A stretch of 32,000 nucleotides of DNA from contig JBHIAT010000005.1 of the NCBI GenBank assembly GCA_046758705.1, positions 18,009-50,008 of the forward strand, given 5' to 3'. A model generated the notes under the pieces. The model ran no database searches, was not told the origin of the DNA, and saw only the letters and a list, made by a program, of their open reading frames with translations. Position numbers and translations under genes: made by a program. Source of the stretch: Candidatus Bipolaricaulia bacterium (lineage in GTDB: Bacteria > Bipolaricaulota > Bipolaricaulia > JBHIAT01). Below, piece by piece: positions 12,361-29,193 of this stretch (positions are counted from its first letter, which is position 1; every line of letters begins with the position of its first letter).

Positions 12361-12383
12361 ATTTTATCGTGAGTGAAGTATCC

Positions 12384-13626: not shown

Positions 13627-13643
13627 TATGACACGGTGTCATA
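13627..13643. promoter_or_regulatory. palindrome TATGACA-cgg-TGTCATA, 10 nt upstream of the HTH gene start
   Basis: Read directly. It is part of a run of TGACA/GACAC motifs across 13441-13643. Confidence 0.35.
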
Positions 13644-13652
13644 CCATCTATC

Positions 13653-14225: not shown

Positions 14226-14240
14226 TAGCCCTACAGACCT

Positions 14241-14779: not shown

Positions 14780-15202
14780 TTACGACGGCGTTGAGTGAAC
14801 CTCCTCAAGCCAATGCCCCCGATGGGTGCGTTTGATTCCCGTACTATCCACGACCAGGATCACCGGTTCCTCGGGATCGAGCTGGGGTTCCGGGTCTAAC
14901 CTCAACTGGGGCAGCCTGAGGCTAAATGTGGTGTAGTCTGGAGCCGGAAGGTGAGTAAGCTTGCCAAGTGCACGTGCGAACCCTTCTAACTGTCGATAGG
15001 GAAGATGGAAAGCAGCTCGAATCATGCCCAGGGGAAGCATCAGCGTCTCCGGGTAAACGAAGGGATGCCCTCGCTTACCTTCGTTCATACGAGCGATCTC
15101 TTGATGCCAATCTTTGAGGACATCGACCTTAAGCAGGATCTCACCTCGTCTGACGAGCTGCTCATTGTACTGCACCCAGTTGCGTGATTGACGATGAGCC
15201 AC
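14780..15202 (-). pseudogene. IS5-family-like DDE transposase, N-terminal fragment
   Basis: 140 aa. The pattern NWVQYNEQLVRRGEILL...VVDSTGIKRTHRGHW matches NW.YN..L..RG ... DSTG.K of the IS5/IS903-type transposases as I recall them. The ORF stops just after the first catalytic Asp, and the remaining ~2/3 of the enzyme is absent. It has a GTG start with GGGAGGGG upstream. Confidence 0.65.
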
Positions 15203-15346
15203 AGTTATCCCCTCCCATCAGCTAATTTAGCCCTTTCGTGGTGATTTGTTCAAGGCCCAATTGGAGTAGGACTTGGATCACCCTCTCAAAGTTGCGTTTT
15301 AGGTGCTCTGAGTATATCCTGAGATAAAAACCAAAGGAGGATAACT

Positions 15347-16620: not shown

Positions 16621-17232
16621 ATGAGCAAGGAGGACACTATTCTCAGTGAGATAACAAAATTCTACTTGGATTCCGGCGATTTTAATGGTCTTCCTATCCG
16701 TGAGATTATCCGAAACTTTGAATTAGAAGGAAAAGAACTCGAAAACGTTCTCGCTTCTTTAATTGAAGAAGATAAAATCTCTCTCAACCTTGGAGACCGT
16801 CACCCAAATCCTCACATCAAGGCGTTTGATGAAGAACCTGCGGAAACACAGATAAAAAAGCTGCAGAGTTTAAACCTAGAGGACGCCTGCGCTTATCCCA
16901 CAAGATCACACCTCCAAGAAGTGGTTGACGTATCTGAGTATCAAGATAGACTCTTTACACTAAGGCTAGCCTTAGGCGAACCGCAGCTATTGGGGAGATC
17001 AACCCCTATCGAGAACCTCGGGATTCACCGGATAGCGGGGCCGCTCCAGGCTCCCGGTCGCGAGCGAGGCCTGGGCAACCAGTCGATCGCTTCTACAACT
17101 CTTCCTCTGGCCCCGGCAGATCCGGGCAGGTTTTTCGGTACGACTCATCGCCCAAGAACTGCTGCCACTCCGCGCGGGTCAGGTTGCGATTGGCTATGCT
17201 GCAGGCACGGGCTTGCCAGGACTCAAGGCTGA
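16621..17232 (+). CDS. hypothetical protein, probably 3'-truncated or chimeric at the island junction near 16991
   Basis: The first ~123 aa are AT-rich and protein-like. From ~16992 the frame runs through the 55-bp direct repeat and then antisense to the WD40 gene tail, giving a Pro/Arg/Gly-rich read-through. Confidence 0.35.
   Translation: MSKEDTILSEITKFYLDSGDFNGLPIREIIRNFELEGKELENVLASLIEEDKISLNLGDRHPNPHIKAFDEEPAETQIKKLQSLNLEDACAYPTRSHLQEVVDVSEYQDRLFTLRLALGEPQLLGRSTPIENLGIHRIAGPLQAPGRERGLGNQSIASTTLPLAPADPGRFFGTTHRPRTAATPRGSGCDWLCCRHGLARTQG
16992..17046. repeat. 55-bp direct repeat, left copy
   Basis: GGGGAGATCAACCCCTATCGAGAACCTCGGGATTCACCGGATAGCGGGGCCGCTC. It is 53/55 identical to 29393-29447; the mismatches are at 17013 and 17014. 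On the minus strand it encodes ..ERPRYPVNPEVLDRG-stop. Confidence 0.9.
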
Positions 17233-19921
17233 CATCCCACAAGAGGATAGTACCATCGTCACTTCCCGACGCCAGTGTTTTACTATTTGGGCTGAAAGCC
17301 ACACTGTTTACGCTAGACTTGTGGCCAGTGAGGGGTGACCCGAGCGGCTGGCGTGCCACGACATCCAATAGGATTACTGCACCATCGGCATTCGCCATCG
17401 CCAACATTTGGCCGTCCGGCCTAAACGCTACACTTTTCACTCCCCGTTGATCTGTGAGCGGTGGGCCAAGCATCTGCTGCGTTGCCACATCCCACAGAAT
17501 GATAGCGTTTTCCTGACTGGTCTTGCCTAAACTGCTTGAAGCCAGCAGTTGGCTGTCCGGGCTGAACGCCAAGCTGGTCACCCGTGCGGTATGCCCAGTG
17601 AGAGGCTGGCCAAGCGGTTGACGAGAGGTGACATCCCATAGCCTGATGGTGTCATCCCAACTACCCGATGCCAACGTTTTTCCATCGGGGCTGAAGGTCA
17701 CGCTTGACACCTCGTCAGTGTGTCCGGTGAGGGGTGGACCAAGCGGTCGACGAGCGGCGACATCCCACAAGATGATAGTGCCGTCCTCATTACCTGACGC
17801 CAGCATTTTGGCATCCGGGCTAAAGGTCACGCTCACCACCCGGCTTTCGTGTCCGGTAAGGGGTTGGCCAATGGGTCGACCAGTCGCGACATCCCACAGG
17901 ATGATGGTGCCGTCCGAACTACCCGACGCCAGTATTTTTCCGTCCGAGCTGAAAGCCTCGTTCAGTATGTTTTCTTTGATGGAAGACTGGCTTACTGGTC
18001 GATGTTCCTCAACATGCCATAAGATGATGCTGTCGTCCCTTTCGCCTGAAGGTTTACGACCAAACGATACCAACGACTGGCCATCTGGAGTGAAAATCAC
18101 GTTTGATATCGGGTCGGCGTGTGTCGTAAGGGACCGAGCAAGTGGCTCAGGGTTGGCAAGATTCCACATGATAATGGTGCCGTCCCGATCGCTCGACGCC
18201 AACGTTTGGCCATCCGGACTGAAGGCCACGCTCAACACCTCGTTAGTGTGTCCGGTGAGAGGTTGGCCGAGCGGCTTAAGGGTAGTGGCATCCCAAAGGA
18301 TGAGGGTGTTGTCCCGGCTGGCCGAGGCCAACATTTGGCCGTTGGGGCTGAAGGCCACGCTGTTCACAAGATGCTTGTGTCCGGTAAGGGGCTGGCCAAT
18401 GGGTTGACCAGTGGTGACATCCCATAGCCTGATGGTGTCGTCTGAACTACCCGACACTAGCATTTGGCCGTCGGGGCTGAAGGCCACACTGGTCAGCCAA
18501 CTTGCATGACCGGTAAGGGGCTGGCCAATGGGTTGACCAGTGGTGACATCCCATAGCCTGATGGTGTCGTCCCAACTACCTGACGCTAACATTTGGCCAT
18601 CGGGGCTGAAGGCCACGCTCACCACCCAGCTCTCGTGTCCAGTAAGGGGCTCGCTGATGGGCTGACCAGTCGCGACATCCCACAGGATAATGGTGTCGTC
18701 CGAACTACCCGATGCTAGCATTTGGCCATCCGGGCTGAAGGTCACGCTGTGCACCCAACTATTGTGGTCAGTTAGAGGGGGGCCAAGAGGCTGGCGATCC
18801 GCAACATCCCATAGCCGAATTTCGCCTTGCTTGCATAATCCACCTTCGTGGTCAGCGCAACTGCCCGAGGCCAACATTTTTCCGTCTGGGCTAAAGGCAA
18901 CGCTGTATACCCAGTTAGTGTGTCTGGTGAGGGGCGGTCCGAGCGGCCGGTGGGTAGCGACATCCCACAGGATAATACTGTTATCCCAACTGCTTGAGGC
19001 CAGCGTCTTTCCATCTGGACTGAAACTCACACTCAACACCCCGGCAGTGTGGCTGTGCAGGAAAGCGCTTAGGCGAGGGTTGTGTTCCAGCCCGGTGAGT
19101 AGACTACTTCGAGCTTCCAAAGTCTTTTTAACCTGGTGAGCTTCCACACTTAATAACAAGGCCAGGTTCAACTGGGCATCCAAGTGAGTGAGGGCTTGCG
19201 CAGCCAATTGGCGGGAGAGGGCGATCTGGCGCCGCTCTTCGGCAATCTGGCGCTGATAGAAAGCCCACCCTGTCAAAAAGGCTAACGCTACCGCTACACT
19301 AATGGCAACTATTGTGAGTGTCCTTTGGCGCTTAGCGGTGGCCTTACGACTGGCGGTGATGTACTGGGTTTGAAGTGACGTGGGCTTAGGTTCTTTCTCT
19401 GCGGCTTGCGCTAGCCATTCCTCCGCATCTCGTAGATCACTCCCGCGCAGCACAAAGCTGTTGTCACGCTCGTTGCTATCCCACTCAATGGCACGCTCCA
19501 GCAAGCGCGTATGCGCACGCACCCAGTCCAGATCGGTATCGATGGCTTCGATCAAAGATTGGAGGGCGCCATCGAAATCGTCACTCTCACGAAAGAAAAT
19601 CCAGTTGAGTGCAGCCAGAGCTTGAGGCACGGCTTCGGCGTCAACATCACGACGCACGATGGGCGTGAGCCGTTTATGGTGCTCGACAGCGTGAGCAAGC
19701 TCTTGAGCACAGACCTCTGAGTCCACGGAATCCGGACTGATGACGAATACAAACGTGTCAGCCGCCTCAATGGCAGAATAAACCTCCTCCAGCCACTCCG
19801 CAGAGGGGGGAATATCCTCCCAGTCAACCCAGGAGTCTCGGTCACGTTCGCTGAGCGCTTCATGTAGATCACGTACGAAATCCTGATCTTGGCGCGAGTA
19901 GGAGATAAAAACGTCAGCCAT
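17093..19921 (-). CDS. TIR domain / helical linker / single TM helix / 14x WD40 protein (no NTPase)
   Basis: 942-aa intact ORF. N-terminal TIR pattern: DVFISYSRQD...FVFVISPDSVDSEVCAQEL. Hydrophobic helix LTIVAISVAVALAFLTGWAFY at nt 19256-19318. 14 WD40 units follow. GAGG lies 5 nt upstream of the ATG. Confidence 0.9.
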   Translation of the reverse strand: MADVFISYSRQDQDFVRDLHEALSERDRDSWVDWEDIPPSAEWLEEVYSAIEAADTFVFVISPDSVDSEVCAQELAHAVEHHKRLTPIVRRDVDAEAVPQALAALNWIFFRESDDFDGALQSLIEAIDTDLDWVRAHTRLLERAIEWDSNERDNSFVLRGSDLRDAEEWLAQAAEKEPKPTSLQTQYITASRKATAKRQRTLTIVAISVAVALAFLTGWAFYQRQIAEERRQIALSRQLAAQALTHLDAQLNLALLLSVEAHQVKKTLEARSSLLTGLEHNPRLSAFLHSHTAGVLSVSFSPDGKTLASSSWDNSIILWDVATHRPLGPPLTRHTNWVYSVAFSPDGKMLASGSCADHEGGLCKQGEIRLWDVADRQPLGPPLTDHNSWVHSVTFSPDGQMLASGSSDDTIILWDVATGQPISEPLTGHESWVVSVAFSPDGQMLASGSWDDTIRLWDVTTGQPIGQPLTGHASWLTSVAFSPDGQMLVSGSSDDTIRLWDVTTGQPIGQPLTGHKHLVNSVAFSPNGQMLASASRDNTLILWDATTLKPLGQPLTGHTNEVLSVAFSPDGQTLASSDRDGTIIMWNLANPEPLARSLTTHADPISNVIFTPDGQSLVSFGRKPSGERDDSIILWHVEEHRPVSQSSIKENILNEAFSSDGKILASGSSDGTIILWDVATGRPIGQPLTGHESRVVSVTFSPDAKMLASGNEDGTIILWDVAARRPLGPPLTGHTDEVSSVTFSPDGKTLASGSWDDTIRLWDVTSRQPLGQPLTGHTARVTSLAFSPDSQLLASSSLGKTSQENAIILWDVATQQMLGPPLTDQRGVKSVAFRPDGQMLAMANADGAVILLDVVARQPLGSPLTGHKSSVNSVAFSPNSKTLASGSDDGTILLWDVSLESWQARACSIANRNLTRAEWQQFLGDESYRKTCPDLPGPEEEL
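17231..19051 (-). repeat. in-frame WD40 repeat array, 14 units
   Basis: Units were counted in the translation, and the boundaries checked against nucleotides (His codon of unit 1 at 19049-19051). Confidence 0.85.
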
Positions 19922-19951: not shown

Positions 19952-20884
19952 TCAATTGGATCGCTGTTCGGTTAAAGTTGCGATGTCGAGCGCCAGACGG
20001 TCGAAAAAAGCGGATTCAGGTTGAGCAAGTATCGTCCGAGCGTTCAGGTCACGCAAAGGTACCGAGCCGATTCCAGGGTCAAGCACCTCCCAAGGCACAA
20101 CATCCGCCAGAAGTCCAGGCAGCAACAGCGGAAAGATGCCCCGTGGACCGTCGAGTTGAGCATACGACCCCAGTGCCCAGTGTACCTCCTGTATGACCGC
20201 TTCGCTGTTCAGCGAAGCATCACTCAACAGGACCACAAAGGCGTCGGCGATGCGCAGATTGTCCTGAACTGCTATACGCCAGTTTTCGCCTGCCCGCAAT
20301 GCTGTCAGATCGCGCCACACCGTCAGACCGCGTTCCTCCAGAGCTTTCTGAACTTTAGCTGCAAGCACCTCATCCTCACGCGCATAACTGATCAACACCC
20401 GACACCCATAGCGCAGTTTGCGTTCCATCCAGATCAGCTGCTCCACACTGCGCGCGTCAGGTTCCGGGAAACCACGCAGCCACCAGCCAATCTTGCTTGC
20501 AGATTGGATCGGCTTCTTGTTAGTGAATCGCAACTTCAGCAGTTCTGAGGTAAAGTCGCGCACGGTGGTGGACTTGAACGAGAAATGGTACGTGCCTTCG
20601 GCATTGGTAGCAATAACAGCGTATTTGCCATAATTCTTGTAAGGGATCTGATCCATCTGTTCTTTTGGCACAGCCATACAGCCGGCCAATTTATAAGCCA
20701 GCGTATAGATGCGCTGACCATTGCTGTTCACCACGCTGGTGACGATCCACAGCGTACCCCCACTGGCCAGTTTGTAGATCACCTTGCTCTTGCTGCGGTA
20801 GAAGTTAGCGCGGAACGCGGGATGCCCGCCGGGGCCACGTCGCAGAATATCCCAATTGACATAGGCCAGTGCATGTCGGCTCAT
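19952..20884 (-). CDS. unknown N-terminal domain (~165 aa) + C-terminal TIR domain protein
   Basis: 310 aa. C-terminal TIR pattern: RVLISYAREDEVLAAKVQKALEERGLTVWRD...AFVVLLSDASLNSEAVIQEV. I recognise no motif in the N-terminal half. Confidence 0.75.
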   Translation of the reverse strand: MSRHALAYVNWDILRRGPGGHPAFRANFYRSKSKVIYKLASGGTLWIVTSVVNSNGQRIYTLAYKLAGCMAVPKEQMDQIPYKNYGKYAVIATNAEGTYHFSFKSTTVRDFTSELLKLRFTNKKPIQSASKIGWWLRGFPEPDARSVEQLIWMERKLRYGCRVLISYAREDEVLAAKVQKALEERGLTVWRDLTALRAGENWRIAVQDNLRIADAFVVLLSDASLNSEAVIQEVHWALGSYAQLDGPRGIFPLLLPGLLADVVPWEVLDPGIGSVPLRDLNARTILAQPESAFFDRLALDIATLTEQRSN

Positions 20885-20899
20885 ATGGATTTATTCCCC

Positions 20900-22663
20900 T
20901 TAACCAGCCTTGTTTCTCATTTCACCTTCTCTTCTGTCTTCAGTTTGCTGGGCGTACAATTCGGCCAGCGCATTTTCCATCCGCTGCACCCAACCGGTAT
21001 GTTCACCCTTGAGAATCTTTTCTGTATGCTTGACCAGTTTGTCGACGTTTTTTGGATCTGCCTGTTCCTTAGGCAACAACGCCGTCCACCAGGCCTGCAC
21101 ATTGGCCAAGTCCGTCGCCACTTGGTTGTATTTCATCAGCGTGTTCTCGATCTGCTGGTATTCCAGGTATGTGATGAAAGCAGCCGCCAACGCCGTCGTC
21201 AGCGCGATCCACAGTTCTACCCCCAACGCAGCCAGCAAGGTGCCCACACCACCAGAGATGTAAATCAACCATTGTAAGCGCTTCAACTGCCGCTCCAGTT
21301 TAGTCGTTTTGAGCCGATAGAAATTGAGCTGGTCACCCAGTCGAATAGTGATGTAGCGATCGGGTGTGAGGAAGCTGAATCCGTCGTCGTCCGCCGCCGC
21401 GCCGTCCATCTTAGGTGGAATAGGATCCACGTACGGGCGCAAGGCCGATAGATTCACGTCGGTTTGCATTAACTGACGGCTGACGGACTCTACCTCGCGG
21501 GTCAGTTTGGCCTCTCGGGAAGTCTTCCCCATCTGCTGATCGTTGTAGATCCCGGCCTTGGCGCGATAGCGAAATATCTCTCGTTTGATCGCTTCGGCGC
21601 CGGCACGCAGCAACACCCACTTGTTGCCTGCTTTGAAGCGGTTGGCCGCCGCCACCAAAATAGAAACTGTGATCGGCACGATCACGATGACATAGTGAAG
21701 CACCTGACCCTGCCAAGAACGGTCATTCTGTATCCCCAACTCCCTTTGGCTCAATACCAGGAGTGTGCCGAGCACCCCCAGCGTCAGAATCCCCAGTTGC
21801 AGTCTGTTAAAGCTGATCTGCTGGCGTTTAGCGTTGTCGTCGTAGAGCGCAAAGCGCTCCCAGACCAGCCTGAGTGTTGTGTGCCTGCTCAACTGGCGAA
21901 TGATCATTCGTTCCAGCCCTGCGATCGGATCATCTAGCGAAAAGAGATGAAAATCACCATCGGCGATAATCTCGGCCATTACCGGGTCGTCGATAAAGGA
22001 AGGCTTTTCCTGACATAACGTGGCGATTTCGTCTGCCAGCCGTCTGCTGCCTTCGATAACAATGATGGGCCAGCCTCGCCGCACGCTACGCAACACCTCT
22101 TCCTTAGCAATGAGACCACCATTGACGAGCACTGTCACGGCAGGGACTCCTTTAGCCAACCCCTCTGCTAACTCATATAGTGTATCTGTTTCTCCGCCCC
22201 AGTCATTGCTTTCTACTAATACAAAATGGGAGTGGTTGGGATCGAGCGGCGCGCTGTCCTCAATGCTATCTTCGGCCGGTCCGCCAGGGTAAGTGACCTT
22301 GCCCGCAGGCGCCACGCCCAACAGAGTTGACCTTCGTCCCCGGTCGACAACGCCCTGGCCCATCATGGCCATCACCCCCACCTGCGTGCCGCCGTCAATG
22401 ATCAACGCGCCCGTGTCGGCGGCGGCGCGAGCGATGCCGCGACTGAACAACTGAACCAAGCGGGATTTCAGTTCCTCATCGAGACCTGCCGCACCACCGA
22501 CGATCATAAGCAGCGCTTTTGGTTGTTCAATGCCCAGTACGTGTAGGATGTTGGCGGCGCTTGTTTCAGCCGGTGGAGCCACCAGTTGCGCCCGATTGCC
22601 GTTAGGAAAAAGGATTTCCTTTTTGCTCTCGTCTTGATTTGCTTGTTGTGTGCCCACTAGCAA
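20900..22663 (-). CDS. SLOG (TRPM/LSDAT-like) domain + two SLATT-like 2TM modules; predicted nucleotide-gated membrane effector
   Basis: 587-aa ORF. SLOG-like Gly-rich motifs: MIVGGAAG, IIDGGTQVGVMAMMG, VLVNGG. Four hydrophobic helices: LGILTLGVLGTLLVL, VLHYVIVIVPITVSILVAAA, WLIYISGGVGTLLAALGV, LWIALTTALAAAFITYL. The likely true start is the GTG at 22657, which has GGAGG 6 nt upstream, rather than the TTG at 22663. Confidence 0.75.
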   Translation of the reverse strand: MLVGTQQANQDESKKEILFPNGNRAQLVAPPAETSAANILHVLGIEQPKALLMIVGGAAGLDEELKSRLVQLFSRGIARAAADTGALIIDGGTQVGVMAMMGQGVVDRGRRSTLLGVAPAGKVTYPGGPAEDSIEDSAPLDPNHSHFVLVESNDWGGETDTLYELAEGLAKGVPAVTVLVNGGLIAKEEVLRSVRRGWPIIVIEGSRRLADEIATLCQEKPSFIDDPVMAEIIADGDFHLFSLDDPIAGLERMIIRQLSRHTTLRLVWERFALYDDNAKRQQISFNRLQLGILTLGVLGTLLVLSQRELGIQNDRSWQGQVLHYVIVIVPITVSILVAAANRFKAGNKWVLLRAGAEAIKREIFRYRAKAGIYNDQQMGKTSREAKLTREVESVSRQLMQTDVNLSALRPYVDPIPPKMDGAAADDDGFSFLTPDRYITIRLGDQLNFYRLKTTKLERQLKRLQWLIYISGGVGTLLAALGVELWIALTTALAAAFITYLEYQQIENTLMKYNQVATDLANVQAWWTALLPKEQADPKNVDKLVKHTEKILKGEHTGWVQRMENALAELYAQQTEDRREGEMRNKAG

Positions 22664-22687
22664 CCTCCTGTTTTGAAACGCTCGGTT

Positions 22688-24961
22688 TCAAGGGTTGCGG
22701 TGTACATGATATGTTGGAAAGGTGCCATACCCTTTAGCCAACGGAGTTTGTCCGACGTAGTCGCACGTGAAGTCACTGATGCGCTCAGCTGCTGCCAAGG
22801 CCGCGAACGGTTGGCTAGCGTAGACATGACCCGGCGGCGTGATCGGCTCGATCCGGGCAGCCCAATTGACGTGCGAACCGGTGTAGCTGTGCTGTTCAAT
22901 GACTGGATCTTTGCAAGAGTACACAGGGCCAGCATGCAGCGCAATGCGAAGGTTCAGATCCTCGGGCAATCCTTTCTCCATCCAATCGGTGCTGCGCAGC
23001 CAGTCACTCAGTTCGAGGGCAAAATTGCCCGCCTGCTTGACAGAGGAGAAGACAAAATATAGAGCATCGCCCCAGGTGTTCTTCATTACCGGCTTATGGG
23101 GAGATGCAGCTACCAGATCGGAGACTGCTCCCATGAAGTGCGCCACGAAGCGTGGGATCTCTTCCTCAGTGAGCTTACTGTACCCCACTACGTCGGCGAA
23201 GAGCATCGCCATGATCTCTTGGGGAAAGCCAGGTGGAGTGGTTATCAGGTAGGGAACGGTTGGAGTCGCAGGTTTGCTGGTTACCGGGGCGGATTGGATG
23301 ACGATAGTCTTCTCTAGTAGAGTAGCAATATCCACCACCTCAGGTTCTCGATCCTGCGAGCGCCAGTGTTCCACCAGTGAAGTGGTGCCCCCTGGTCCAT
23401 CGCCAGGGCGGCCGTCCCACACGACCAGGGGGATCACCTCGGTATCCAGCATCTGTGCCCGTAGCGCTGCCAGGCCATCCTGCATGAGGTTGGAGTATTC
23501 GTAGGCAACCGCACTTCCTGAAGCGCGATGCTCGCTGGCAACCATAACGCGGGCGACCTGCTTCAACACGCGTCGGAAACGCCTCCCCCAATTGGCTCCA
23601 GGAATGATGTCCACACTGGCCGTCTGAAACTCATCCTTCGGAAATGGCAGTACAACATGGATCTCACCTTTTTGCCTTAGCATCGCTTCCAGGAAGAGGA
23701 TGTCGGAGCCGCAGGCTGCTGAGGCGTAGCCAATGCGTGCATCCAATTTCTTCAACCTAGCAGCGATCTCCTGACGGACCAGCTTTTCCAGTGATTGGGG
23801 AAAGCGCGGTCGAGGCCGGCCCGGTTGGTCAATCATATGGCCGGCAAAGACGACGATCCGGGGAATCCCAAAACAGCGGTCGAAACGATGTTTGTCACCA
23901 CCCAGGTACTCCATCAAGAGTCGGGCATTGTGCCGGGTAGAACCCAGGTCGGCGTAATTTCCTTGCCCCTGTTCTGCTGCTCGGATATATCGGGCTTCAG
24001 CCTCGATCCACTCACCTAAGATGATTGCCGCCTCCCCCAGCGATGCCTCAGCCCAGTAGTCATCCTGCTCCTGCAATTTTTCCAGACAGAGAACACGGAC
24101 TTTGCGGGCCAGCTCCTTGGCGTGCTCTTGTTGTCCCATCAGCAGGGCCGTGGTGGCCGCGTTGATCCCGGTGTAAATGGCATCGTCAACTTTGTTCCCT
24201 CTTACCGCCAGGCGGTACGCCTTGGAATAAATATCGTGTGCCTGACGCAATTGGGCTTCTCGTTCGGCAGGGTCCGTTGCCTGTTCCCGGAGATCTTTGT
24301 GAGTGCGAGCAAGGAGGCCGAGCGTCTCCCCATCGGTATGCCCCTCGTGGTGGAGTTGGGAGAGAATCTCATTGGCTCGTTCGATCGCTCCACTGCGGGC
24401 GAGCGCCAATCCCTTAAGTTGCCTCAGGCGCACGTTTTTGGGCCAGTGCTTCAAGCCCGTAGCGATAATGTCATAAGCCAACAAAGGTTCGCCCGCCTTC
24501 AGGATCCGGTTGCCCAGCACTTCGTAGAGCTCAGAGGAACCGGCCCAATGCCCCGATGATATCGGTGCCCAAATCGATAGGAGATCTGTCAGGTCCAATT
24601 TGTCAGGGCCCTTCAGTCGTTCCAGCGCTTCTGTAACGGCTTCATAAGAAGAGCCAGAAGCGGATGAAGATCTCCGAGACGGGCTCTCAATCCGATACCC
24701 CAGAGCAATGATCGTCTTCAACACTTCCATCGCTGTTATGCGATCGTATTCCTTCTCGGACTCGGAGAGCTGCGCGTAGGGCAACAGGTCGGGATGCTTC
24801 TTGTTCGCGTCATCCTGCTGAGGTCCATAGGTCCAGCCTGCGGCAATGCGCTGCTGAGCCCAGAGGTCATGGTTATTTTCGGCCAGCAACTCGGTGAGTT
24901 TGCGAAGTCCCTTGGGCAACTTCATGCCCGAGGTGTCAATCGGTTTAGGTTCGTAAGTCAT
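22688..24961 (-). CDS. RyR-like domain / TPR-like (DUF4071-like) region / SLOG/LOG-like Rossmannoid module / class III adenylate-guanylate-type nucleotide cyclase
   Basis: 757 aa. The RyR-like segment is LAENNHDLWAQQRIAAGWTYG...HPDLLPYAQLSESEKEYDR. A helical repeat region contains YTGINAATTALLMG. The Rossmannoid module reads IVVFAGHMID...GYASAACGSDILFLEAML..GEIHVVLPF. The cyclase motifs FADVVGYS, WGDALYFVF, LRIALHAGPV and GSHVNWAARIE are all intact. The ATG overlaps the upstream stop (ATGA). Confidence 0.8.
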   Translation of the reverse strand: MTYEPKPIDTSGMKLPKGLRKLTELLAENNHDLWAQQRIAAGWTYGPQQDDANKKHPDLLPYAQLSESEKEYDRITAMEVLKTIIALGYRIESPSRRSSSASGSSYEAVTEALERLKGPDKLDLTDLLSIWAPISSGHWAGSSELYEVLGNRILKAGEPLLAYDIIATGLKHWPKNVRLRQLKGLALARSGAIERANEILSQLHHEGHTDGETLGLLARTHKDLREQATDPAEREAQLRQAHDIYSKAYRLAVRGNKVDDAIYTGINAATTALLMGQQEHAKELARKVRVLCLEKLQEQDDYWAEASLGEAAIILGEWIEAEARYIRAAEQGQGNYADLGSTRHNARLLMEYLGGDKHRFDRCFGIPRIVVFAGHMIDQPGRPRPRFPQSLEKLVRQEIAARLKKLDARIGYASAACGSDILFLEAMLRQKGEIHVVLPFPKDEFQTASVDIIPGANWGRRFRRVLKQVARVMVASEHRASGSAVAYEYSNLMQDGLAALRAQMLDTEVIPLVVWDGRPGDGPGGTTSLVEHWRSQDREPEVVDIATLLEKTIVIQSAPVTSKPATPTVPYLITTPPGFPQEIMAMLFADVVGYSKLTEEEIPRFVAHFMGAVSDLVAASPHKPVMKNTWGDALYFVFSSVKQAGNFALELSDWLRSTDWMEKGLPEDLNLRIALHAGPVYSCKDPVIEQHSYTGSHVNWAARIEPITPPGHVYASQPFAALAAAERISDFTCDYVGQTPLAKGYGTFPTYHVHRNP

Positions 24962-27900
24962 GGTATTCCTCCTTCCTCTGGCTCTGGCAGATTCGGGCAG
25001 GTCTTGCGATACGGCTCATCGCCCAGATACTGCTGCCACTCGTCCAGTGTGAGATTGTGTGTCAGGCGGGAGCAGGCTTCGGCAATCAGGTCTTCCGGCT
25101 GCCACAGCCACACGCGGGCGGTGCCGTCCCAACTTGCTGAGGCCAGCCGGCGTCCGTCGGGGCTGAAGGCTACGGCGCTCACCGGGCCATCGTGGAACAT
25201 GCGGGCGACCTCGCGCCCAGTTTCTGCCTCCCACACGCGGGCGGTGCCGTCCACACTCCCTGTGGCTAGCTGGCGTCCGTCGGGGCTGAAGGTTACGGCA
25301 GACACCCTGCCATCGTGCATCATGCGGGCGAGCTCGCGGCCAGTCGTTGCCTCCCACACGCGGGCAGTGCCGTCCCAACTTGCTGAGGCCAGCCGGCGTC
25401 CGTCGGGGCTGAAGGCTACGGCAGACACCAGGTCATCGTGCATCATACGGGCGATCTGGCGGCCGGACTCCGCCTCCCACACGCGGGCGGTGCCGTCCCA
25501 GCTCGCCGAGGCTAGCCAGCGTCCGTCGGGGCTGAAGGTCACAGCCACCACCTGGCGTTCGCTTTCATGCATCATCTGGGCGACTTGGCGACCGGACTCC
25601 GCCTCCCACACGTGGGCGGTGCCGTCTCTGCTCGCTGAGGCGATCCACTGCCCGTCGGGGCTAAAGACCACGGCATTTACCCGGTCTTTGTGGGTCATGC
25701 GAGCGATCTCGCGGCTGGATTCTGTCTCCCACACACGGGCAGTGCCGTCATCGCTCGCCGAGGCCAACCAGCGTCCGTCGGGACTGAAGGCCACAGCATT
25801 CACCGGGTCTTCGTGGGGCATGCGGGCGATCTGGCGGCCGACCGTTGCCTCCCACACGTGGGCAGTATTATCATCGCCTCCCGAGGCCAGCCAGCGTCCG
25901 TCGGGGCTGAAGGCCACGGCATTCACCGGGTCTTCGTGGGGCATGCGGGCGATCTGGCGGCCGGCCGTTGCCTCCCACACACGGGCAGTGTTGTCATCGC
26001 CTCCCGAGGCCAGCCAGCGTCCGTCGGGGCTGAAGGCTATGACAGACACCCTACCTTCATGCATCGTGCGGACGACGTGGCGGCCGGCCGTTGCCTCCCA
26101 CACGCGGGCGGTGCGATCCTCGCTGGCTGAGGCGATCCACTGCCCGTCGGGGCTGAAGGTCACGGCGCTCACCAAGCCTTCATGCGTCATGCGGGCGATC
26201 TGGCGGCCGGTTTCCGTCTCCCACACACGGGCAGTACGATCCCCGCTGGCCGAGGCGATCCACTGCCCGTCGGGGCTGAAGGCTACGGCACTCACCGGGC
26301 CTTCGTGGGTCATGCGGGCGACCTGGCGGCCGGTTTCCGTCTCCCACACGCGGGTGGTGCCATCCTCGCTGGCCGAGGCGATCCACTGCCCGCCGGGGCT
26401 GAAGGCTACCTCCAACACTGGGCCATCGTGGGGCATGCGGGCGATCTGGCGGCCGGTTTCCGCCTCCCACACGCGGGCGGTGCCATCCTCGCTGGCCGAG
26501 GCGATCCACTGCCCGCTGGGGCTGAAGGTCACGGCATTGACATCACCATTGTGGGTCATGCGGGCAAGTTCACGCCCAGTTTCCGCCTCCCACACGCGGG
26601 CAGTGCCGTCCCTGCTTCCCGAGGCTAGCCAGCGTCCGTCGGGGCTGAAGACCACAGTCCTCACCGGGCCATCGTGGGGCATGCGGGCGATCTGGCGGCC
26701 GGTTTCCGCCTCCCACACCTGGGCAGTGTTGTCGTTGCTTCCCGAGGCCAGCCAGCGTCCGTCGGGGCTGAAGGTGACAGTTACCACCGGGCCATCGTGA
26801 GTCATGCGGGCGATCTCGTGGCCGGACTCCGCCTCCCACACGCGGACGGTGCCATCCCAGCTGGCTGAGGTTACCCAGTGACTGTCAGAGTTGAAGGCCA
26901 CGGCAGACACCCCGCCTTGGTGAGTCATGCGGGCGATCTGGCGGCCGGACTCCGCCTCCCACACGCGGGCGGTGCCGTCCACACTCCCTGTGGCTAGCTG
27001 GCTTCCGTCGGGGCTGAAGGCTACGGCAAACACCCAGCTTTCGTGCGCCATCTGGGCCACGGGACGCGAGAGCAGCGCTAGGCTGTGACGTAGGGCTTGG
27101 TCACCCTCCAACGTGGGAACGCGTCGCAGGGACTCCACGACCAAGAGCACGCTGCGCGGCAGCAAATCTGCTTGCTGGACCCGCACAAACTCGGCCTGAG
27201 CCGCCAACTGGCGTGCCAACTGTTCCTCGGCCACCTGACGCTGCTCTTCAGCGATCCGGCGCTGTTCTTCGGCGCGTCGCCATTGCAGGCCAGCTACCCC
27301 GCCCAAAATCAGAGCTGCCAGCAGACCTAGGGTAAGCCCTAAGATCACGCGCCGCCGTAGGCGTTCTCGCGCTGCCCGCTCCTGCTTCCGCAGGGCAAGG
27401 CTCTCCTGGGTATATCCTTGCTCATCCGGGTTTAGGTCGTCGGGCCGCTCGGTCAGCCAACGCTCAGCTTCGGCCAGCGAGGCACCGCGTAACAGGGCGC
27501 CCTCGTCGCGCTCAGTGCGCTCCCACTCGGTCAGGGCTGCTCGCAGCCGTTGCCTCCAGAGAAGAAACTCCCGGTCTTCGTCTAGCCAACTCTGCAACTG
27601 CTTCCATCCTCGGACGAGGGCTTCATGAACCACCTCGACCGTTTCCTTGCCAAAGACCTCGCGAGCGACCCCGACTTTCTCCTCCTCTGTGACACCATCC
27701 CGCCCTGTCACTAGCAGCCGGGCGTCAGCCAGGGTCTTGATCACCGACCGGGCCTCTTCGCCGAGCTCGACCAACGTGGCCCGCCTGCGGGTGTCTTCAC
27801 TCCCTTCTTCAGGCTGTGCTACACGGACCAGCCGGGTAAAGACGCGGCGAGTAGCCTTCCGCTGCTCTGGCGTGAATTTCGCAAATTCCGCCTCTGCCCG

Positions 27901-29193
27901 CTGGGCGATGGCCCCTGCTACCTCCCCGATGTCCTCGTAAGCAGCGTGGGTCAACATCCCGCCCTGTCGCTGCGCCCACAGTTCCGTCAGCGCAAACTCC
28001 AACAGAGGCAGGTTGCCTGGGTTATCTCCTACATCGTCAAGGATGCGGTCCACTAGCCCGGGCTCGAAGGTCAGCCCTACCTTTTGAGCAGGATCAACGA
28101 TGGCTCGTTCCAGTTCGTCTCGTTTCATAGAGCCCAGGTTGACCACGCCCCCCTCCAGGCGGTCGCTCAGATCTCGTGTTAAGGCGAGAGCGTTACCGTA
28201 GAAGTCAGCCCGCAGGGTGAGCAGAACGGACAGCGGTGCCCGCTCTAAAGCGTTCAGCAGAGCTGTCACAAAGGACTTGCGATCTGTTTTCGGCGTCAGG
28301 GTGAAGAGTTCCTCGAATTGATCCGCCACCAGCAACAGTCGGTCGGTGCCCTCGGATTTCTCCAGGAGGCGCTCGACGGCGTCCTCCAGGAGTGTCTCTC
28401 CGTTTGCTAGCCGCTTTCCCAACTTCCGAGCCTCTGTCAGGCGGTCCGTCTCGTTCAGGCTCGGCTCCAGGAGCGAGATGAGGGCCGCGGCCAGGCGGTG
28501 GAAGGGGCGATCTCCGGGAGTGAAGAGAACCGCATCCCAGGTCGCTGCTGGCGGGCGTTGACGACGCAGCAGAGGTAATAACCCCGCTTGCACGACGGAG
28601 GATTTGCCGCTGCCAGAGGGCCCGACGACCGCCACCAGATTTCGATTCAGCGTTGCCTTCAACAACCGTTTGGAAAATTCCTCCTGCCCGAAGAAGAAGG
28701 CAGCGTGCTCCTCACCAAAGGCCCGTAGACCCCGATAGGGACACAGGGCCACGCGCACTTCTTCCGGCCGGACTGCCTCCTTCCCCCGGACGGCTCGCAC
28801 CAGTGCATCCAACGCCTCGGAGTCGGTGAGGTCTTGGTGTAGATCCACCCAGGTGTTAAGGAACAGGAAACCGGAGGTGAGGTCGGCACCGGGGAGTAGG
28901 ACGGGGATGACAGGAAAAACGCGCCCGGCCTTCTCCTCCTGCACCTGGCGGTCTAGGGCGAACCCTATCTCCCGCTTTTGCCAGAGGCCTAGGTCATGGG
29001 GGCCGAGGAAGACAGCCACGGCGCGTGCGCTGCGCAGCGCTTCTTCCAGGGCCTGGGGCCAGGGCAGACCCGCCACCAGGTTCTCACGGTCCAAAAAGGT
29101 GGCAATCCCACGGGCTTCCAGAAGCTGCCGAACGGTCTGGATCGATTTGCGATCAGGACTGTGGTAACTCAGAAAGAGGTCATAAGTACTCAT
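24958..29193 (-). CDS. TIR / STAND P-loop NTPase (nSTAND-like) / single TM helix / 16x WD40 protein
   Basis: 1411-aa intact ORF. TIR pattern: YDLFLSYHSPD...AVAVFLGPHDLGLWQKREI. The linker CPYRGLRAFGEEHAAFFFGQE is followed by Walker A GPSGSGKSS (nt 28603-28623). Hydrophobic helix VILGLTLGLLAALILGGVAGL at nt 27286-27348. 16 WD40 units follow. Confidence 0.9.
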   Translation of the reverse strand: MSTYDLFLSYHSPDRKSIQTVRQLLEARGIATFLDRENLVAGLPWPQALEEALRSARAVAVFLGPHDLGLWQKREIGFALDRQVQEEKAGRVFPVIPVLLPGADLTSGFLFLNTWVDLHQDLTDSEALDALVRAVRGKEAVRPEEVRVALCPYRGLRAFGEEHAAFFFGQEEFSKRLLKATLNRNLVAVVGPSGSGKSSVVQAGLLPLLRRQRPPAATWDAVLFTPGDRPFHRLAAALISLLEPSLNETDRLTEARKLGKRLANGETLLEDAVERLLEKSEGTDRLLLVADQFEELFTLTPKTDRKSFVTALLNALERAPLSVLLTLRADFYGNALALTRDLSDRLEGGVVNLGSMKRDELERAIVDPAQKVGLTFEPGLVDRILDDVGDNPGNLPLLEFALTELWAQRQGGMLTHAAYEDIGEVAGAIAQRAEAEFAKFTPEQRKATRRVFTRLVRVAQPEEGSEDTRRRATLVELGEEARSVIKTLADARLLVTGRDGVTEEEKVGVAREVFGKETVEVVHEALVRGWKQLQSWLDEDREFLLWRQRLRAALTEWERTERDEGALLRGASLAEAERWLTERPDDLNPDEQGYTQESLALRKQERAARERLRRRVILGLTLGLLAALILGGVAGLQWRRAEEQRRIAEEQRQVAEEQLARQLAAQAEFVRVQQADLLPRSVLLVVESLRRVPTLEGDQALRHSLALLSRPVAQMAHESWVFAVAFSPDGSQLATGSVDGTARVWEAESGRQIARMTHQGGVSAVAFNSDSHWVTSASWDGTVRVWEAESGHEIARMTHDGPVVTVTFSPDGRWLASGSNDNTAQVWEAETGRQIARMPHDGPVRTVVFSPDGRWLASGSRDGTARVWEAETGRELARMTHNGDVNAVTFSPSGQWIASASEDGTARVWEAETGRQIARMPHDGPVLEVAFSPGGQWIASASEDGTTRVWETETGRQVARMTHEGPVSAVAFSPDGQWIASASGDRTARVWETETGRQIARMTHEGLVSAVTFSPDGQWIASASEDRTARVWEATAGRHVVRTMHEGRVSVIAFSPDGRWLASGGDDNTARVWEATAGRQIARMPHEDPVNAVAFSPDGRWLASGGDDNTAHVWEATVGRQIARMPHEDPVNAVAFSPDGRWLASASDDGTARVWETESSREIARMTHKDRVNAVVFSPDGQWIASASRDGTAHVWEAESGRQVAQMMHESERQVVAVTFSPDGRWLASASWDGTARVWEAESGRQIARMMHDDLVSAVAFSPDGRRLASASWDGTARVWEATTGRELARMMHDGRVSAVTFSPDGRQLATGSVDGTARVWEAETGREVARMFHDGPVSAVAFSPDGRRLASASWDGTARVWLWQPEDLIAEACSRLTHNLTLDEWQQYLGDEPYRKTCPNLPEPEEGGIP
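25102..27045 (-). repeat. in-frame tandem array of 16 WD40 units with a 123-bp (41-aa) period and high inter-unit nucleotide identity
   Basis: Unit consensus is HxxxVxAVAFSPDG(R/Q)W(L/I)ASxSxDGTARVWEAETGRQIARM. Unit 13 has a 2-aa insertion and unit 16 is 31 aa. The boundaries were verified (His codon at 27043-27045). Confidence 0.9.

What the first reader, a model, noticed from the sequence alone, without database searches (positions are those of the whole stretch)
25102..27348. A hydrophobic helix separates the TIR/protease/NTPase modules from the WD40 arrays in all three proteins; conserved Cys pairs hint that the propellers are extracytoplasmic
Seen: each WD40 protein has one 21-residue strongly hydrophobic segment directly after an Arg-rich stretch and before the repeats (nt 4758-4820, 19256-19318, 27286-27348). 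All three end in a conserved ~45-aa tail, (A)C-x-(I/R)-(A/L)-x-(R/H)-NLT-x-x-EW-x-Q(Y/F)-x-GD-x-x-YRKTC-x-(D/N)-LP-x-PE, with two invariant Cys. Inference: if the helix spans the membrane, the STAND/TIR/protease parts are cytoplasmic and the WD40 sensors face outward. The Cys pair could then form a disulfide. A transmembrane NLR-like receptor that senses outside the cell would be unusual, since known bacterial STAND immune sensors are cytosolic. The positive-inside signal is ambiguous, because Arg residues occur on both sides of the helix.
Basis: inference. Interest (0 to 1): 0.65.

Follow-up and report, generated by a model that had tools for sequence, protein, structure and literature searches.

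The report
Membrane-spanning TIR/STAND proteins, outward WD40 sensors
Three immune-type proteins in this window each very probably cross the cell membrane once, keeping their enzyme and ATPase parts inside and their WD40 propeller "sensor" outside the cytoplasm; the layout is common and already listed in published tables, but its topology has never been tested.

Summary
Each of the three minus-strand WD40 proteins has exactly one 23-residue uncharged segment (Kyte-Doolittle 2.2-2.5) at the stated coordinates, and all three end in the same ~45-aa two-Cys tail.

The interpretation passed every computational test I could run.
- Hundreds of homologs keep one such segment at the same place. Its hydrophobicity is conserved but its sequence is not.
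- Across 278 homologs the N flank holds 5.3 K+R and the C flank 2.9.
- Some homologs add LysM, lectin-like or FGE domains after the tail. One adds a second helix followed by a basic end.
- Relatives without the helix give the sharpest contrast. Proteins with the helix keep both tail Cys in 231/239 cases, against 12/21 without it.
- Their WD40 arrays hold about five times fewer unpaired Cys. Blade insertions carry 0 or 2 Cys, almost never 1.

The reading is therefore a single-pass N-in/C-out receptor with an extracytoplasmic propeller and probable disulfides (about 0.75).

"nSTAND1+TM+BetaPropeller" and "TIR+TM+BetaPropeller" are listed in the supplement of Kaur et al. 2021. No experiment exists. 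I could not measure Cys-Cys distances or check the genome for Dsb/VKOR.

The parts
3468..6812 (-). P0001: Trypsin_2 - nSTAND1 - TM - WD40 propeller - tail (1114 aa)
   Evidence: ORF, translation, Pfam.
6303..6752 (-). P0001 trypsin-like peptidase domain (aa 21-170), predicted cytoplasmic
   Evidence: PF13365 Trypsin_2, E=3.1e-12.
4974..6173 (-). P0001 nSTAND1 NTPase (aa 214-613), predicted cytoplasmic
   Evidence: PF20703, 407 bits against a cut-off of 27.1. Walker A GPSGSGKSS is visible.
4752..4820 (-). P0001 predicted transmembrane helix: uncharged stretch aa 665-687, VTLGLAAGLIITVTLALLAGIQW, with a GxxxG motif
   Evidence: KD19 = 2.37. Flanks hold K+R 8 (N) and 5 (C); summed Hessa scale is -1.7 kcal/mol.
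3603..4559 (-). P0001 WD40 propeller (about aa 752-1070) with two Cys-bracketed blade insertions (C776/C788 at nt 4449-4487; C918/C932 at nt 4017-4061)
   Evidence: PF00400, 7 stretches. Propeller pLDDT is mostly >90 in the single-sequence AF2 model.
3471..3608 (-). P0001 C-terminal two-Cys tail (aa 1069-1114; C1081, C1106)
   Evidence: Alignment A1; profile search.
17093..19921 (-). P0002: TIR_2 - TM - two WD40 propellers - tail (942 aa)
   Evidence: AF2 with a 40-sequence alignment gives mean pLDDT 90.9.
19553..19912 (-). P0002 TIR domain (aa 4-123), predicted cytoplasmic; Glu74 is invariant in 40 homologs
   Evidence: PF13676, E=3.6e-27. Invariant columns of A2.
19253..19321 (-). P0002 predicted transmembrane helix (aa 201-223, TLTIVAISVAVALAFLTGWAFYQ), the middle of one continuous helix spanning aa 182-245
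   Evidence: KD19 = 2.17. Flanks. DSSP of the AF2 model.
17234..19072 (-). P0002 WD40 arrays (aa 284-896), with one Cys-bracketed insertion (C355/C363, nt 18833-18859)
   Evidence: PF00400, 12 stretches. Model; Cys contexts.
17096..17239 (-). P0002 two-Cys tail (aa 895-942; C907, C932): two short helices (899-910, 916-923) followed by a coil
   Evidence: A1. AF2 pLDDT >90 up to about aa 930.
24958..29193 (-). P0003: TIR_2 - nSTAND1 - TM - 16 WD40 repeats - tail (1411 aa); first gene of the five-gene TIR/SLOG/SLATT cluster
28801..29175 (-). P0003 TIR domain (aa 7-131)
   Evidence: PF13676, E=1.4e-19.
27502..28740 (-). P0003 nSTAND1 NTPase (aa 152-564)
   Evidence: PF20703, 409.5 bits.
27280..27348 (-). 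P0003 predicted transmembrane helix (aa 616-638, VILGLTLGLLAALILGGVAGLQW)
   Evidence: KD19 = 2.48. Flanks hold K+R 8 (N) and 5 (C); Hessa sum is -1.9.
25102..27081 (-). P0003 WD40 arrays: highly repetitive 41-aa units with no Cys at all
   Evidence: PF00400, 16 stretches. Repeat analysis; Cys list.
24961..25110 (-). P0003 two-Cys tail (aa 1362-1411; C1374, C1399)
   Evidence: A1.
19952..24961 (-). Genes lying between P0003 and P0002: RyR/TPR-S/class III cyclase protein (22688-24961), SLOG (LSDAT_prok)+SLATT_1 membrane protein (20900-22663) and a 310-aa TIR_2 protein (19952-20884). These are the likely signal readers and effectors.
   Evidence: Pfam.

Best explanation
P0001, P0002 and P0003 are most likely single-pass, N-in/C-out (type II) membrane proteins.

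The cytoplasmic side would hold the N-terminal output and switch modules: the trypsin-like peptidase or the TIR domain, with an nSTAND1 NTPase in P0001 and P0003. A 23-residue helix bracketed by Arg would span the membrane. A short helical stalk, the WD40 propeller or propellers and the two-Cys tail would lie outside the cytoplasm. There the tail Cys pair and the Cys-bracketed blade insertions probably form disulfides.

Inferred working model:
1. The propellers bind a ligand in the periplasm or at the cell surface. In P0003 they are highly repetitive and vary at a few positions.
2. Binding clusters the receptors. Clustering would pass through the TM helix, which often carries GxxxG, and through the continuous helix that runs across it.
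3. Clustering lets nSTAND1 oligomerise and brings the TIR or protease domains together.
4. In the five-gene cluster, a TIR-made NAD-derived signal would then be read by the SLOG domain of the SLOG-SLATT membrane protein and by the RyR/TPR-S/cyclase protein.

What is shown: the anatomy, the family-wide conservation of the helix, the charge bias, the fused domains in homologs, and the Cys statistics. What is inferred: the topology itself, the disulfides, the existence of a ligand, and all the signalling steps.
For: 1. The helix.
- Each protein has one uncharged stretch of 23 aa, with KD19 of 2.2-2.5 and no rival segment.
- The summed Hessa-2005 scale (values recalled from memory, approximate) is negative for all three window proteins and for 114/118 homologs.

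2. Family conservation of the property but not the sequence.
- 115/122 proteins examined (119 listed homologs plus the three window proteins) have exactly one such segment at the same place.
- The stretch has a median length of 23 aa and a range of 19-34.
- Composition is Ala/Leu/Val/Ile/Gly with 0.0% Pro.
- Trp+Tyr make up 13.9% of the last five residues against 2.9% of the first five.
- GxxxG occurs in 59/238 helices against 33+-4.5 in shuffles.

3. Positive-inside rule. K+R is 5.29 in the N flank and 2.91 in the C flank. N>C holds in 237 of 278 homologs, N=C in 28 and N<C in 13.

4. Domains fused after the tail in homologs.
- Two LysM domains in P0058, P0308 and P0372.
- 3keto-disac_hyd/DUF1080 lectin-like domains in P0356.
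- FGE-sulfatase behind a Pro/Thr linker in P0286.
- P0295 has a second hydrophobic helix followed by KSKKNSKGRIK. This gives a self-consistent in-out-in topology.
- P0193 is only MGRK + helix + linker + WD40 + tail, a classical signal-anchor layout.

5. Comparison with relatives that lack the helix. These relatives replace the helix cleanly with a polar coil between conserved flanks.
- WD40-array Cys outside bracketed pairs run at 0.137 per 100 aa (n=197 with the helix) against 0.744 (n=11 without), MWU p=4e-8.
- Cys-bracketed loops occur in 32% of helix-bearing proteins against 0/11.
- Within the P0003-type subfamily the figures are 0.26 against 0.75.
- Both tail Cys are kept in 231/239 against 12/21, Fisher p=3.8e-7.
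- The cytoplasmic N-terminal parts of the same proteins hold 0.64 Cys per 100 aa.

6. Cys co-occurrence. Insertion-bearing blades hold 0 Cys (88 cases), 1 (2), 2 (111) or 3 (2).

7. The AF2 model of P0002 (mean pLDDT 90.9) shows one uninterrupted helix over aa 182-245 that runs through the TM segment. DSSP shows nothing else in that stretch. The linker and tail helices are modelled with pLDDT >90.
Against: - There are no experimental data for any member of the family. No dedicated topology predictor (DeepTMHMM, Phobius) was available.
- The C flank is still unusually basic for a translocated segment: 2.9 K+R in 15 residues, and Arg at position +1 in 197/278 homologs.
- Relatives without the helix carry the same linker, WD40 type and tail. 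In print they are as common as the TM form: 427 'nSTAND1+BetaPropeller' strings against 278 with TM. The sensor module can therefore work in the cytoplasm, and the tail Cys pair is not restricted to exported proteins. It is still intact in 12/21 helix-less proteins.
- About 30% of the Cys in TM-bearing arrays do not fall in a recognisable pair.
- In the P0002 model, C355 and C363 lie on opposite strands of a hairpin but are offset by three residues in the DSSP register. The model does not obviously place them as a cross-strand pair, and coordinates could not be read.
- The statistical tests are not corrected for phylogenetic relatedness, and the helix-less sample is small (11-21 proteins, roughly 5-8 lineages).
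- I could not check whether this Bipolaricaulia genome has a disulfide-forming system, because the genome search was shut.
Confidence: 0.75

Rival explanations
1. The hydrophobic helix only tethers the protein to the cytoplasmic face of the membrane, as an in-plane or re-entrant (monotopic) helix. Both the NTPase/TIR part and the WD40 arrays would then stay in the cytoplasm, as in known cytosolic STAND sensors.
For: - Relatives without the helix have the same flanks, WD40 type and tail, so they are necessarily cytoplasmic.
- Arg clusters occur on both sides of the helix.
- STAND autoinhibition usually needs contact between sensor and NOD module (established knowledge of Apaf-1 and NLRs).
Against: - An uncharged stretch of 23 residues with no Pro and no central turn motif is too short for a re-entrant hairpin.
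- It is not amphipathic, with a moment of 0.26-0.42, so an in-plane position is unlikely.
- This reading does not explain the N>C charge bias, the LysM/lectin fusions, the second-TM homolog or the Cys differences from helix-less relatives.
Confidence: 0.1
2. The protein is soluble at rest and the hydrophobic helix is a latent effector or oligomerisation element. It would insert into, or disrupt, the membrane only after the STAND switch is activated.
For: - TM helices are common effector modules in bacterial conflict systems (Kaur 2020).
- GxxxG enrichment fits helix-helix association.
- The helix is dispensable in many relatives.
Against: - The helix lies between the NTPase and the sensor, not at the effector end. 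These proteins already have TIR or protease effectors.
- The AF2 model shows it as part of one continuous helix spanning aa 182-245 rather than as a separate element.
- A stretch with KD 2.4 would be captured co-translationally by SRP (established knowledge).
- Long-term Cys depletion and pairing in the downstream domain argue for permanent residence outside the cytoplasm.
Confidence: 0.06
3. The segment is a buried hydrophobic helix of a soluble protein and has no relation to membranes. On this view the Cys patterns reflect lineage history rather than compartment.
For: The Cys comparisons are not phylogenetically corrected, and the helix-less sample is small.
Against: - Sequence inside the segment is free to vary while hydrophobicity, length and the Arg brackets are kept. 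This is the signature of a lipid-facing helix, not of a specific packing interface.
- No charged or Pro residue occurs in a median of 23 positions across 238 proteins.
Confidence: 0.03

Closest known systems
nSTAND1 conflict-system NTPases (Pfam PF20703; Kaur, Iyer, Burroughs, Aravind, eLife 2021, PMC8195603), including the catalogued architectures 'nSTAND1+TM+BetaPropeller', 'TIR+nSTAND1+TM+BetaPropeller' and 'TIR+TM+BetaPropeller'
   Same: - P0001 and P0003 match PF20703 end to end.
- The exact domain string of P0003 appears 6 times in supplement file 1 of that paper. The string of P0002 appears 2 times, and the generic nSTAND1+TM+BetaPropeller string 278 times.
   Different: - The main text of the paper does not discuss the TM helix, its topology, the tail or the Cys pattern.
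- 'Trypsin+nSTAND1+TM+BetaPropeller', the architecture of P0001, does not occur in the table.
- There are no experiments on any TM-bearing member.
Cytosolic bacterial antiviral STAND sensors (Avs/AVAST, bNACHT) and Apaf-1-type STAND-WD40 proteins
   Same: - They share the tripartite logic of effector, STAND NTPase and repeat sensor.
- The P0002 model matches Apaf-1 and a Nostoc repetitive propeller (2ymu, 43% identity) by fold.
- WD40 sensors are reported for bacterial STANDs.
   Different: - The characterised members sense phage proteins inside the cytoplasm.
- Here a membrane helix separates the sensor from the switch, so the usual direct autoinhibitory contact between sensor and NOD module is impossible.
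- Kibby et al. only suggest periplasmic or intramembrane sensing for NACHT proteins with several TM regions.
Bacterial receptor Ser/Thr kinases with an extracytoplasmic beta-propeller sensor (M. tuberculosis PknD; from my own knowledge, not checked here)
   Same: - Both have a single-pass N-in/C-out layout with a cytoplasmic output domain, one TM helix and an outside beta-propeller.
- Kinase-TM-WD40-tail homologs of this cassette exist, for example P0155.
   Different: PknD has an NHL-type propeller and a kinase output. It has no STAND or TIR module and no two-Cys tail.
Animal Toll-like receptors
   Same: Both combine a cytoplasmic TIR domain, one TM helix and an extracellular solenoid or repeat sensor (TLR layout as described).
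   Different: - The orientation is opposite: type I in TLRs with the TIR at the C terminus, type II here.
- TLRs use LRRs where these proteins use WD40.
- The bacterial TIR_2 domain keeps the catalytic-type Glu (E74 invariant) and is probably an enzyme rather than a scaffold.
- There is no evidence of common descent of the whole architecture.
Type VII Thoeris (TIR ThsB + SLATT effector ThsH; bioRxiv 10.64898/2025.12.03.692087)
   Same: TIR genes lie next to a SLATT-domain membrane protein. In the tested type VII systems the TIR makes cADPR after infection.
   Different: - The preprint does not mention WD40 (0 occurrences).
- Here the SLATT protein carries an LSDAT_prok SLOG domain.
- The cluster here has three TIR proteins, an nSTAND1 and a cyclase.

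Membership tests
nSTAND1 STAND NTPase (PF20703) | Full-length match to the Pfam model above the gathering score | tested here: met
   P0001 scores 407.3 bits and P0003 409.5 bits against a cut-off of 27.1, covering profile positions 1-378 of 379. P0002 has no NTPase and is not a member.
nSTAND1 STAND NTPase (PF20703) | Walker A and Walker B motifs intact | tested here: met
   GPSGSGKSS and LLLVADQFEE are present in both P0001 and P0003 (sequences).
Catalytic TIR domain (PF13676 TIR_2; NAD-cleaving bacterial TIRs) | Pfam match plus the conserved catalytic-type glutamate | tested here: met
   TIR_2 matches at E=3.6e-27 (P0002) and 1.4e-19 (P0003). E74 of P0002 is invariant in 40 homologs. No enzyme activity was tested.
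Single-pass N-in/C-out (type II) membrane protein | One uncharged hydrophobic stretch of about 20 or more residues, predicted to insert | tested here: met
   The stretch is 23 aa with KD19 of 2.17-2.48. The approximate Hessa sum is -0.6 to -1.9 kcal/mol.
Single-pass N-in/C-out (type II) membrane protein | Positive-inside charge bias | tested here: met
   In the window proteins K+R is 8/5/8 in the N flank and 5/4/5 in the C flank. Across the family it is 5.29 against 2.91, with N>C in 237/278. The C flank is nevertheless rather basic.
Single-pass N-in/C-out (type II) membrane protein | Experimentally shown location of the C-terminal domain outside the cytoplasm | not testable with these tools
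   This needs PhoA/LacZ or sfGFP fusions, protease shaving or Cys accessibility assays.
Exported, disulfide-bonded domain | Cys occur as coupled pairs and free Cys are depleted relative to cytoplasmic relatives | tested here: met
   - Insertion-bearing blades hold 0 Cys (88 cases), 1 (2) or 2 (111).
- Unpaired-type Cys run at 0.137 against 0.744 per 100 aa.
- The tail pair is kept in 231/239 against 12/21.
- The tests are not phylogenetically corrected.
Exported, disulfide-bonded domain | Cys pairs lie at bonding distance in the structure, and the organism has a disulfide-forming system | tested here: inconclusive
- The DSSP register puts C355 and C363 on opposite strands but offset by three residues.
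- The genome search for DsbA/VKOR was shut.
Toll-like receptors | LRR ectodomain, type I orientation, scaffold-type C-terminal TIR | tested here: not met
   The ectodomain is WD40, the TIR is N-terminal and the orientation is type II. The resemblance is one of logic only.
Type VII Thoeris | TIR gene in an operon with a SLATT effector | tested here: met
   A SLATT_1 + LSDAT_prok protein (20900-22663) lies between TIR genes on the same strand.
Type VII Thoeris | Phage-dependent cADPR production and phage defence | not testable with these tools
   These were shown only for the systems tested in the preprint.

The most novel reading that the evidence does not exclude
This very large family of TM-linker-WD40-tail proteins would be a bacterial class of true outside-in innate receptors. 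It comprises thousands of clusters and is fused to TIR, nSTAND1, caspase, trypsin, kinase, HTH and ParA-like cytoplasmic modules.

On this reading, disulfide-stabilised, diversifying propellers in the periplasm or on the cell surface detect an envelope-level cue such as an adsorbing phage, cell-wall fragments or a neighbouring cell. Clustering across a GxxxG helix then switches on a cytoplasmic NLR-like NTPase or a TIR enzyme before anything enters the cytoplasm. In this window the output would be a NAD-derived messenger that opens a SLOG-gated SLATT pore.
Probability: 0.3. Interest if true: 0.8.

Novelty: new variant of a known kind. Interest (0 to 1): 0.5.

Why it matters
All experimentally characterised bacterial STAND and TIR immune sensors detect their triggers inside the cytoplasm. 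If the WD40 arrays of this family really face outward, bacteria would have a common, single-polypeptide counterpart of transmembrane pattern-recognition receptors. It would join an extracellular repeat sensor to an NLR-type switch or a TIR enzyme.

That would open two questions: what is sensed at the envelope, and how a STAND switch is controlled without direct contact between sensor and NOD module.

The comparison made here gives a cheap, scalable computational handle on topology. Proteins with the helix keep their Cys in pairs, and relatives without it do not. It also points to simple bench tests. The tail motif is present in at least 9,617 protein clusters but has no Pfam family, and it deserves a name and a structure.

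Tried and rejected
1. Plain Cys parity. C-terminal parts have an even Cys count in 73% of cases against 51% for N-terminal parts. Most of the effect comes from the tail pair itself, so I replaced it with the pair/insertion analysis and the comparison against helix-less relatives.

2. AF2 of P0001 aa 640-1114 without an alignment. The propeller was confident, but the linker and tail had pLDDT below 50, so the model says nothing about the tail. I repeated the prediction on P0002 with 40 homologs.

3. Cys-Cys distances. Model coordinates are not exposed in /data. Only the DSSP register could be used, and it was inconclusive.

4. Fold search of the P0002 model against the PDB. It returned only generic WD40 and Apaf-1 matches and gave no information on topology.

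5. Search for the tail in the PDB and for the tail and linker in Pfam. Neither found anything.

6. The idea that the Arg cluster before the helix is an internal twin-arginine (Tat) signal. RR occurs in the last six residues in only 57% of homologs, the helices are strongly hydrophobic, and Arg preference is equally high in the C flank. The idea is not supported and I did not pursue it.

7. Search for Dsb/VKOR in the window's own genome. The genome search was shut for the whole session.

8. Literature. I found no paper that discusses the TM helix between nSTAND1 or TIR and WD40 in its main text. It appears only in supplement tables.
Full report
**1. What is there**

The window holds three long minus-strand ORFs that encode WD40 proteins:
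- P0001: 3468-6812, 1114 aa
- P0002: 17093-19921, 942 aa
- P0003: 24958-29193, 1411 aa

Pfam gives the following domains:
- P0001: Trypsin_2 (aa 21-170) and nSTAND1 (PF20703, aa 214-613, 407 bits)
- P0002: TIR_2 (aa 4-123)
- P0003: TIR_2 (aa 7-131) and nSTAND1 (aa 152-564, 409 bits)
- Each protein then has 7, 12 or 16 WD40 stretches.

These are the only strongly hydrophobic windows in each protein. KD19 is 2.37, 2.17 and 2.48, and the next best window reaches at most 1.65. The uncharged stretch is 23 residues in all three and is bracketed by Arg on both sides. The three C-terminal tails align with 22 invariant columns, including both Cys (A1).

**2. Is the segment a membrane helix?**

I searched with the junction region of P0001 (aa 630-770) and found 521 homologs. 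Of the 122 proteins examined (the 119 listed homologs plus the three window proteins), 115 have exactly one segment with KD19 >= 1.8 at the equivalent place. This count is biased, because the query contained the helix.

The sequence of the segment varies freely, but its properties are held constant:
- The uncharged length has a median of 23 and a range of 19-34.
- Composition is A 21%, L 18.5%, V 13%, I 11%, G 9%, with no Pro.
- Trp+Tyr make up 13.9% of the last five residues against 2.9% of the first five.
- GxxxG occurs in 59 of 238 helices against 33+-4.5 after shuffling.
- The helices are not amphipathic, with a moment of 0.26-0.42.
- A rough sum of the Hessa 2005 biological scale (values recalled from memory) is negative for the three window proteins and for 114 of 118 homologs.

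These are the marks of a lipid-facing transmembrane helix. They are not those of a buried or amphipathic helix.

**3. Which way round?**

The N-terminal parts are 200-660 residues long and have no signal peptide. They need cytoplasmic substrates (ATP, NAD+), so N-in is the only sensible orientation. The charge data agree. In 278 homologs the 15-residue N flank holds 5.29 K+R and the C flank 2.91. N>C holds in 237, N=C in 28 and N<C in 13. For the window proteins the counts are 8/5/8 against 5/4/5.

The C flank does remain rather basic, with Arg at +1 in 197/278 homologs. I count that as a point against easy translocation.

**4. Independent markers in homologs**

A second search with the TIR-TM part of P0002 found 4,296 homologs at E<=1e-10. 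Some members carry further modules after the tail:
- Two LysM domains behind a Pro/Thr-rich linker in P0058, P0308 and P0372.
- 3keto-disac_hyd/DUF1080 lectin-like domains in P0356 and P0361.
- An FGE-sulfatase domain in P0286.
- TPR-like modules in several members.

P0295 has a second, very hydrophobic helix followed by KSKKNSKGRIKDIHQK. This gives a self-consistent in-out-in topology. P0193 is simply MGRK + helix + linker + WD40 + tail, a classical signal anchor.

The cassette TM-linker-WD40-tail is joined to many different cytoplasmic heads: TIR, nSTAND1, trypsin, caspase/CHAT, protein kinase, XRE HTH and ParA-like. That pattern is typical of receptors.

**5. The tail and the cysteines**

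A profile of the three tails finds 9,617 representative clusters at E<=1e-3. The motif has no Pfam family and no relative of solved structure.

Among the full-length top hits, roughly 21 of 24 have the helix. Three do not: P0124, P0140 and P0175. In these the ~25-residue hydrophobic stretch is cleanly replaced by a polar coil between conserved flanks (A3). A third search collected more such helix-less relatives. They provide a natural control, because their WD40 arrays must be cytoplasmic.

The comparison gives these results:
- **Unpaired Cys.** In tail-bearing full-length proteins with the helix (n=197), the WD40 array holds 0.385 Cys per 100 aa. Of these, 64% lie in C-x(4-22)-C pairs that bracket blade insertions, which leaves 0.137 other Cys per 100 aa. 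59% of these proteins have none at all. Without the helix (n=11) the array holds 0.744 per 100 aa, none of it in bracketed pairs, and no protein is free of them (MWU p=4e-8; loops, Fisher p=0.02).
- **Matched subfamily.** Restricting to P0003-type tails gives 0.26 (n=7) against 0.75 (n=10).
- **Internal control.** The cytoplasmic N-terminal parts of the same TM proteins hold 0.64 Cys per 100 aa.
- **Co-occurrence.** Blades with an insertion hold 0 Cys (88 cases), 1 (2), 2 (111) or 3 (2) in TM-bearing proteins. Cys almost never occur singly.
- **Tail pair.** Both tail Cys are present in 231 of 239 TM-bearing proteins but in only 12 of 21 helix-less ones. The helix-less losses show several different patterns: Q/C, Q/R, C/R, N/F and Q/Y (Fisher p=3.8e-7).

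The window proteins fit this picture. All Cys C-terminal of the helix are in local pairs:
- P0001: 776/788, 918/932 and 1081/1106
- P0002: 355/363 and 907/932
- P0003: 1374/1399, with none in its 16 repeats

These tests are not corrected for shared ancestry, and the helix-less sample is small. The direction is nevertheless the same in every comparison. It is what one expects if the domain behind the helix lives in an oxidising compartment. It also means that the tail pair alone is not diagnostic, since it survives in over half of the cytoplasmic relatives.

**6. Structure prediction**

Without an alignment, only the propeller of P0001 was confident. With 40 homologs of the same architecture (A2), P0002 is modelled at mean pLDDT 90.9. 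The model shows:
- A TIR domain with a helical extension.
- One uninterrupted helix over aa 182-245 that runs through the TM segment (201-223).
- Two linker helices (251-264, 268-280).
- Two propellers.
- A tail made of two short helices (899-910, 916-923) and a coil, with pLDDT >90 up to about residue 930.

I infer, but could not verify, that the linker and tail helices pack together as a cap on the propeller. The DSSP register puts C355 and C363 on opposite strands of an extended hairpin, offset by three residues. That neither supports nor excludes a bond.

**7. Context and likely mechanism**

P0003 and P0002 bracket three genes on the same strand: a RyR/TPR-S/class III cyclase protein, an LSDAT_prok (SLOG) + SLATT_1 membrane protein, and a 310-aa TIR_2 protein. 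TIR + SLATT is the layout of type VII Thoeris, in which tested TIRs make cADPR on infection. P0001 stands apart, between a luciferase-like monooxygenase gene and an EamA transporter gene.

The most likely mechanism is as follows. All steps are inferred.
1. A ligand binds the outward propellers.
2. Binding clusters the receptors.
3. Clustering passes through the TM helix to nSTAND1 oligomerisation and to proximity of the TIR or protease domains.
4. In the cluster, a NAD-derived signal is read by the SLOG domains.

P0003's repeats are 41-aa units with 69% mean identity. Their variation is concentrated at a few positions, as in diversifying WD40 sensors.

**8. What is known**

- nSTAND1 was named by Kaur et al. 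2021. The main text of that paper does not discuss a TM helix.
- Supplement file 1 of the paper contains 'nSTAND1+TM+BetaPropeller' 278 times, 'nSTAND1+BetaPropeller' 427 times, 'TIR+nSTAND1+TM+BetaPropeller' 6 times and 'TIR+TM+BetaPropeller' 2 times. 'Trypsin+nSTAND1+TM+BetaPropeller' does not occur.
- Kibby et al. [quoted passage not shown]
- Dore et al. predict a periplasmic CLec sensor for one NACHT protein.
- Surveys of prokaryotic WD40 proteins, metacaspases and TIR domains do not address this helix.
- The 2026 Nature survey of bacterial STANDs treats WD40 sensors as intracellular.

The architecture is therefore catalogued, and the idea of envelope sensing by STAND proteins has been floated. 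The topology, the tail and the Cys signature are undescribed and untested.

**9. Verdict**

My confidence that the WD40 arrays are extracytoplasmic is about 0.75. My confidence that the Cys pairs are disulfides is about 0.6.
- This is a common, catalogued but uncharacterised variant of STAND/TIR conflict proteins. The scan has met it many times before.
- Interest is moderate.
- The decisive step is a simple topology and disulfide experiment.

Noticed in passing
window 25102-27081 (-), P0003 aa ~705-1364: The 16 WD40 repeats are highly repetitive 41-aa units with 69% mean pairwise identity (up to 90%). Variation is concentrated at about six positions (3, 11, 13, 15, 17, 33). This pattern is typical of recently amplified, diversifying WD40 sensors.
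   Followed up: partly
window 4449-4487, 4017-4061 (P0001) and 18833-18859 (P0002), minus strand: Some blades replace the usual 'GSxDxTIxLWD' with 'C-x(7-13)-C-xQGEIRLWD'. This is a variable loop bracketed by two Cys. The insertion recurs in a third of TM-bearing homologs and in none of 11 helix-less relatives.
   Followed up: yes
tails: window 3471-3608, 17096-17239, 24961-25110 (-): The ~45-aa tail (ACxIANRNLTxxEWxxYxGDxPYRKTCPxLP) occurs in at least 9,617 representative protein clusters. It has no Pfam family and no solved relative.
   Followed up: yes
homologs P0124, P0140, P0175, P0383-P0390: Close relatives lack the helix. A polar coil (for example RQDQEWKALYDESERQ) replaces it cleanly between conserved flanks, so the helix has been gained or lost as a discrete indel.
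   Followed up: yes
N flanks of the helices (window ~4821-4865, 19322-19366, 27349-27393, minus strand): Arg is strongly preferred over Lys just before the helix: 87% Arg against 64% in the whole proteins, with RR in the last six residues in 57% of homologs. A possible internal twin-arginine export signal was considered but is not supported.
   Followed up: partly
window 19952-20884 (-): This 310-aa protein has a TIR_2 domain only in its C-terminal half (aa 163-264). The N-terminal 160 residues have no Pfam match.
   Followed up: no
window 29548-30585 (-): This 345-aa ORF lies directly upstream of the cluster and has no Pfam match at E<=0.001.
   Followed up: no
window 8001-16000: G+C drops to 43-50% in this stretch, against 55-67% in the regions that hold the three WD40 genes. 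The composition is heterogeneous, and either part may be of foreign origin.
   Followed up: no
homolog P0295 (1031 aa): This TIR-TM-WD40-tail protein has a second, Cys-rich hydrophobic helix and a poly-basic C terminus (LVLFLCFCCIGAFIIVCIGLYYLYKSKKNSKGRIK). It would be anchored at both ends.
   Followed up: partly
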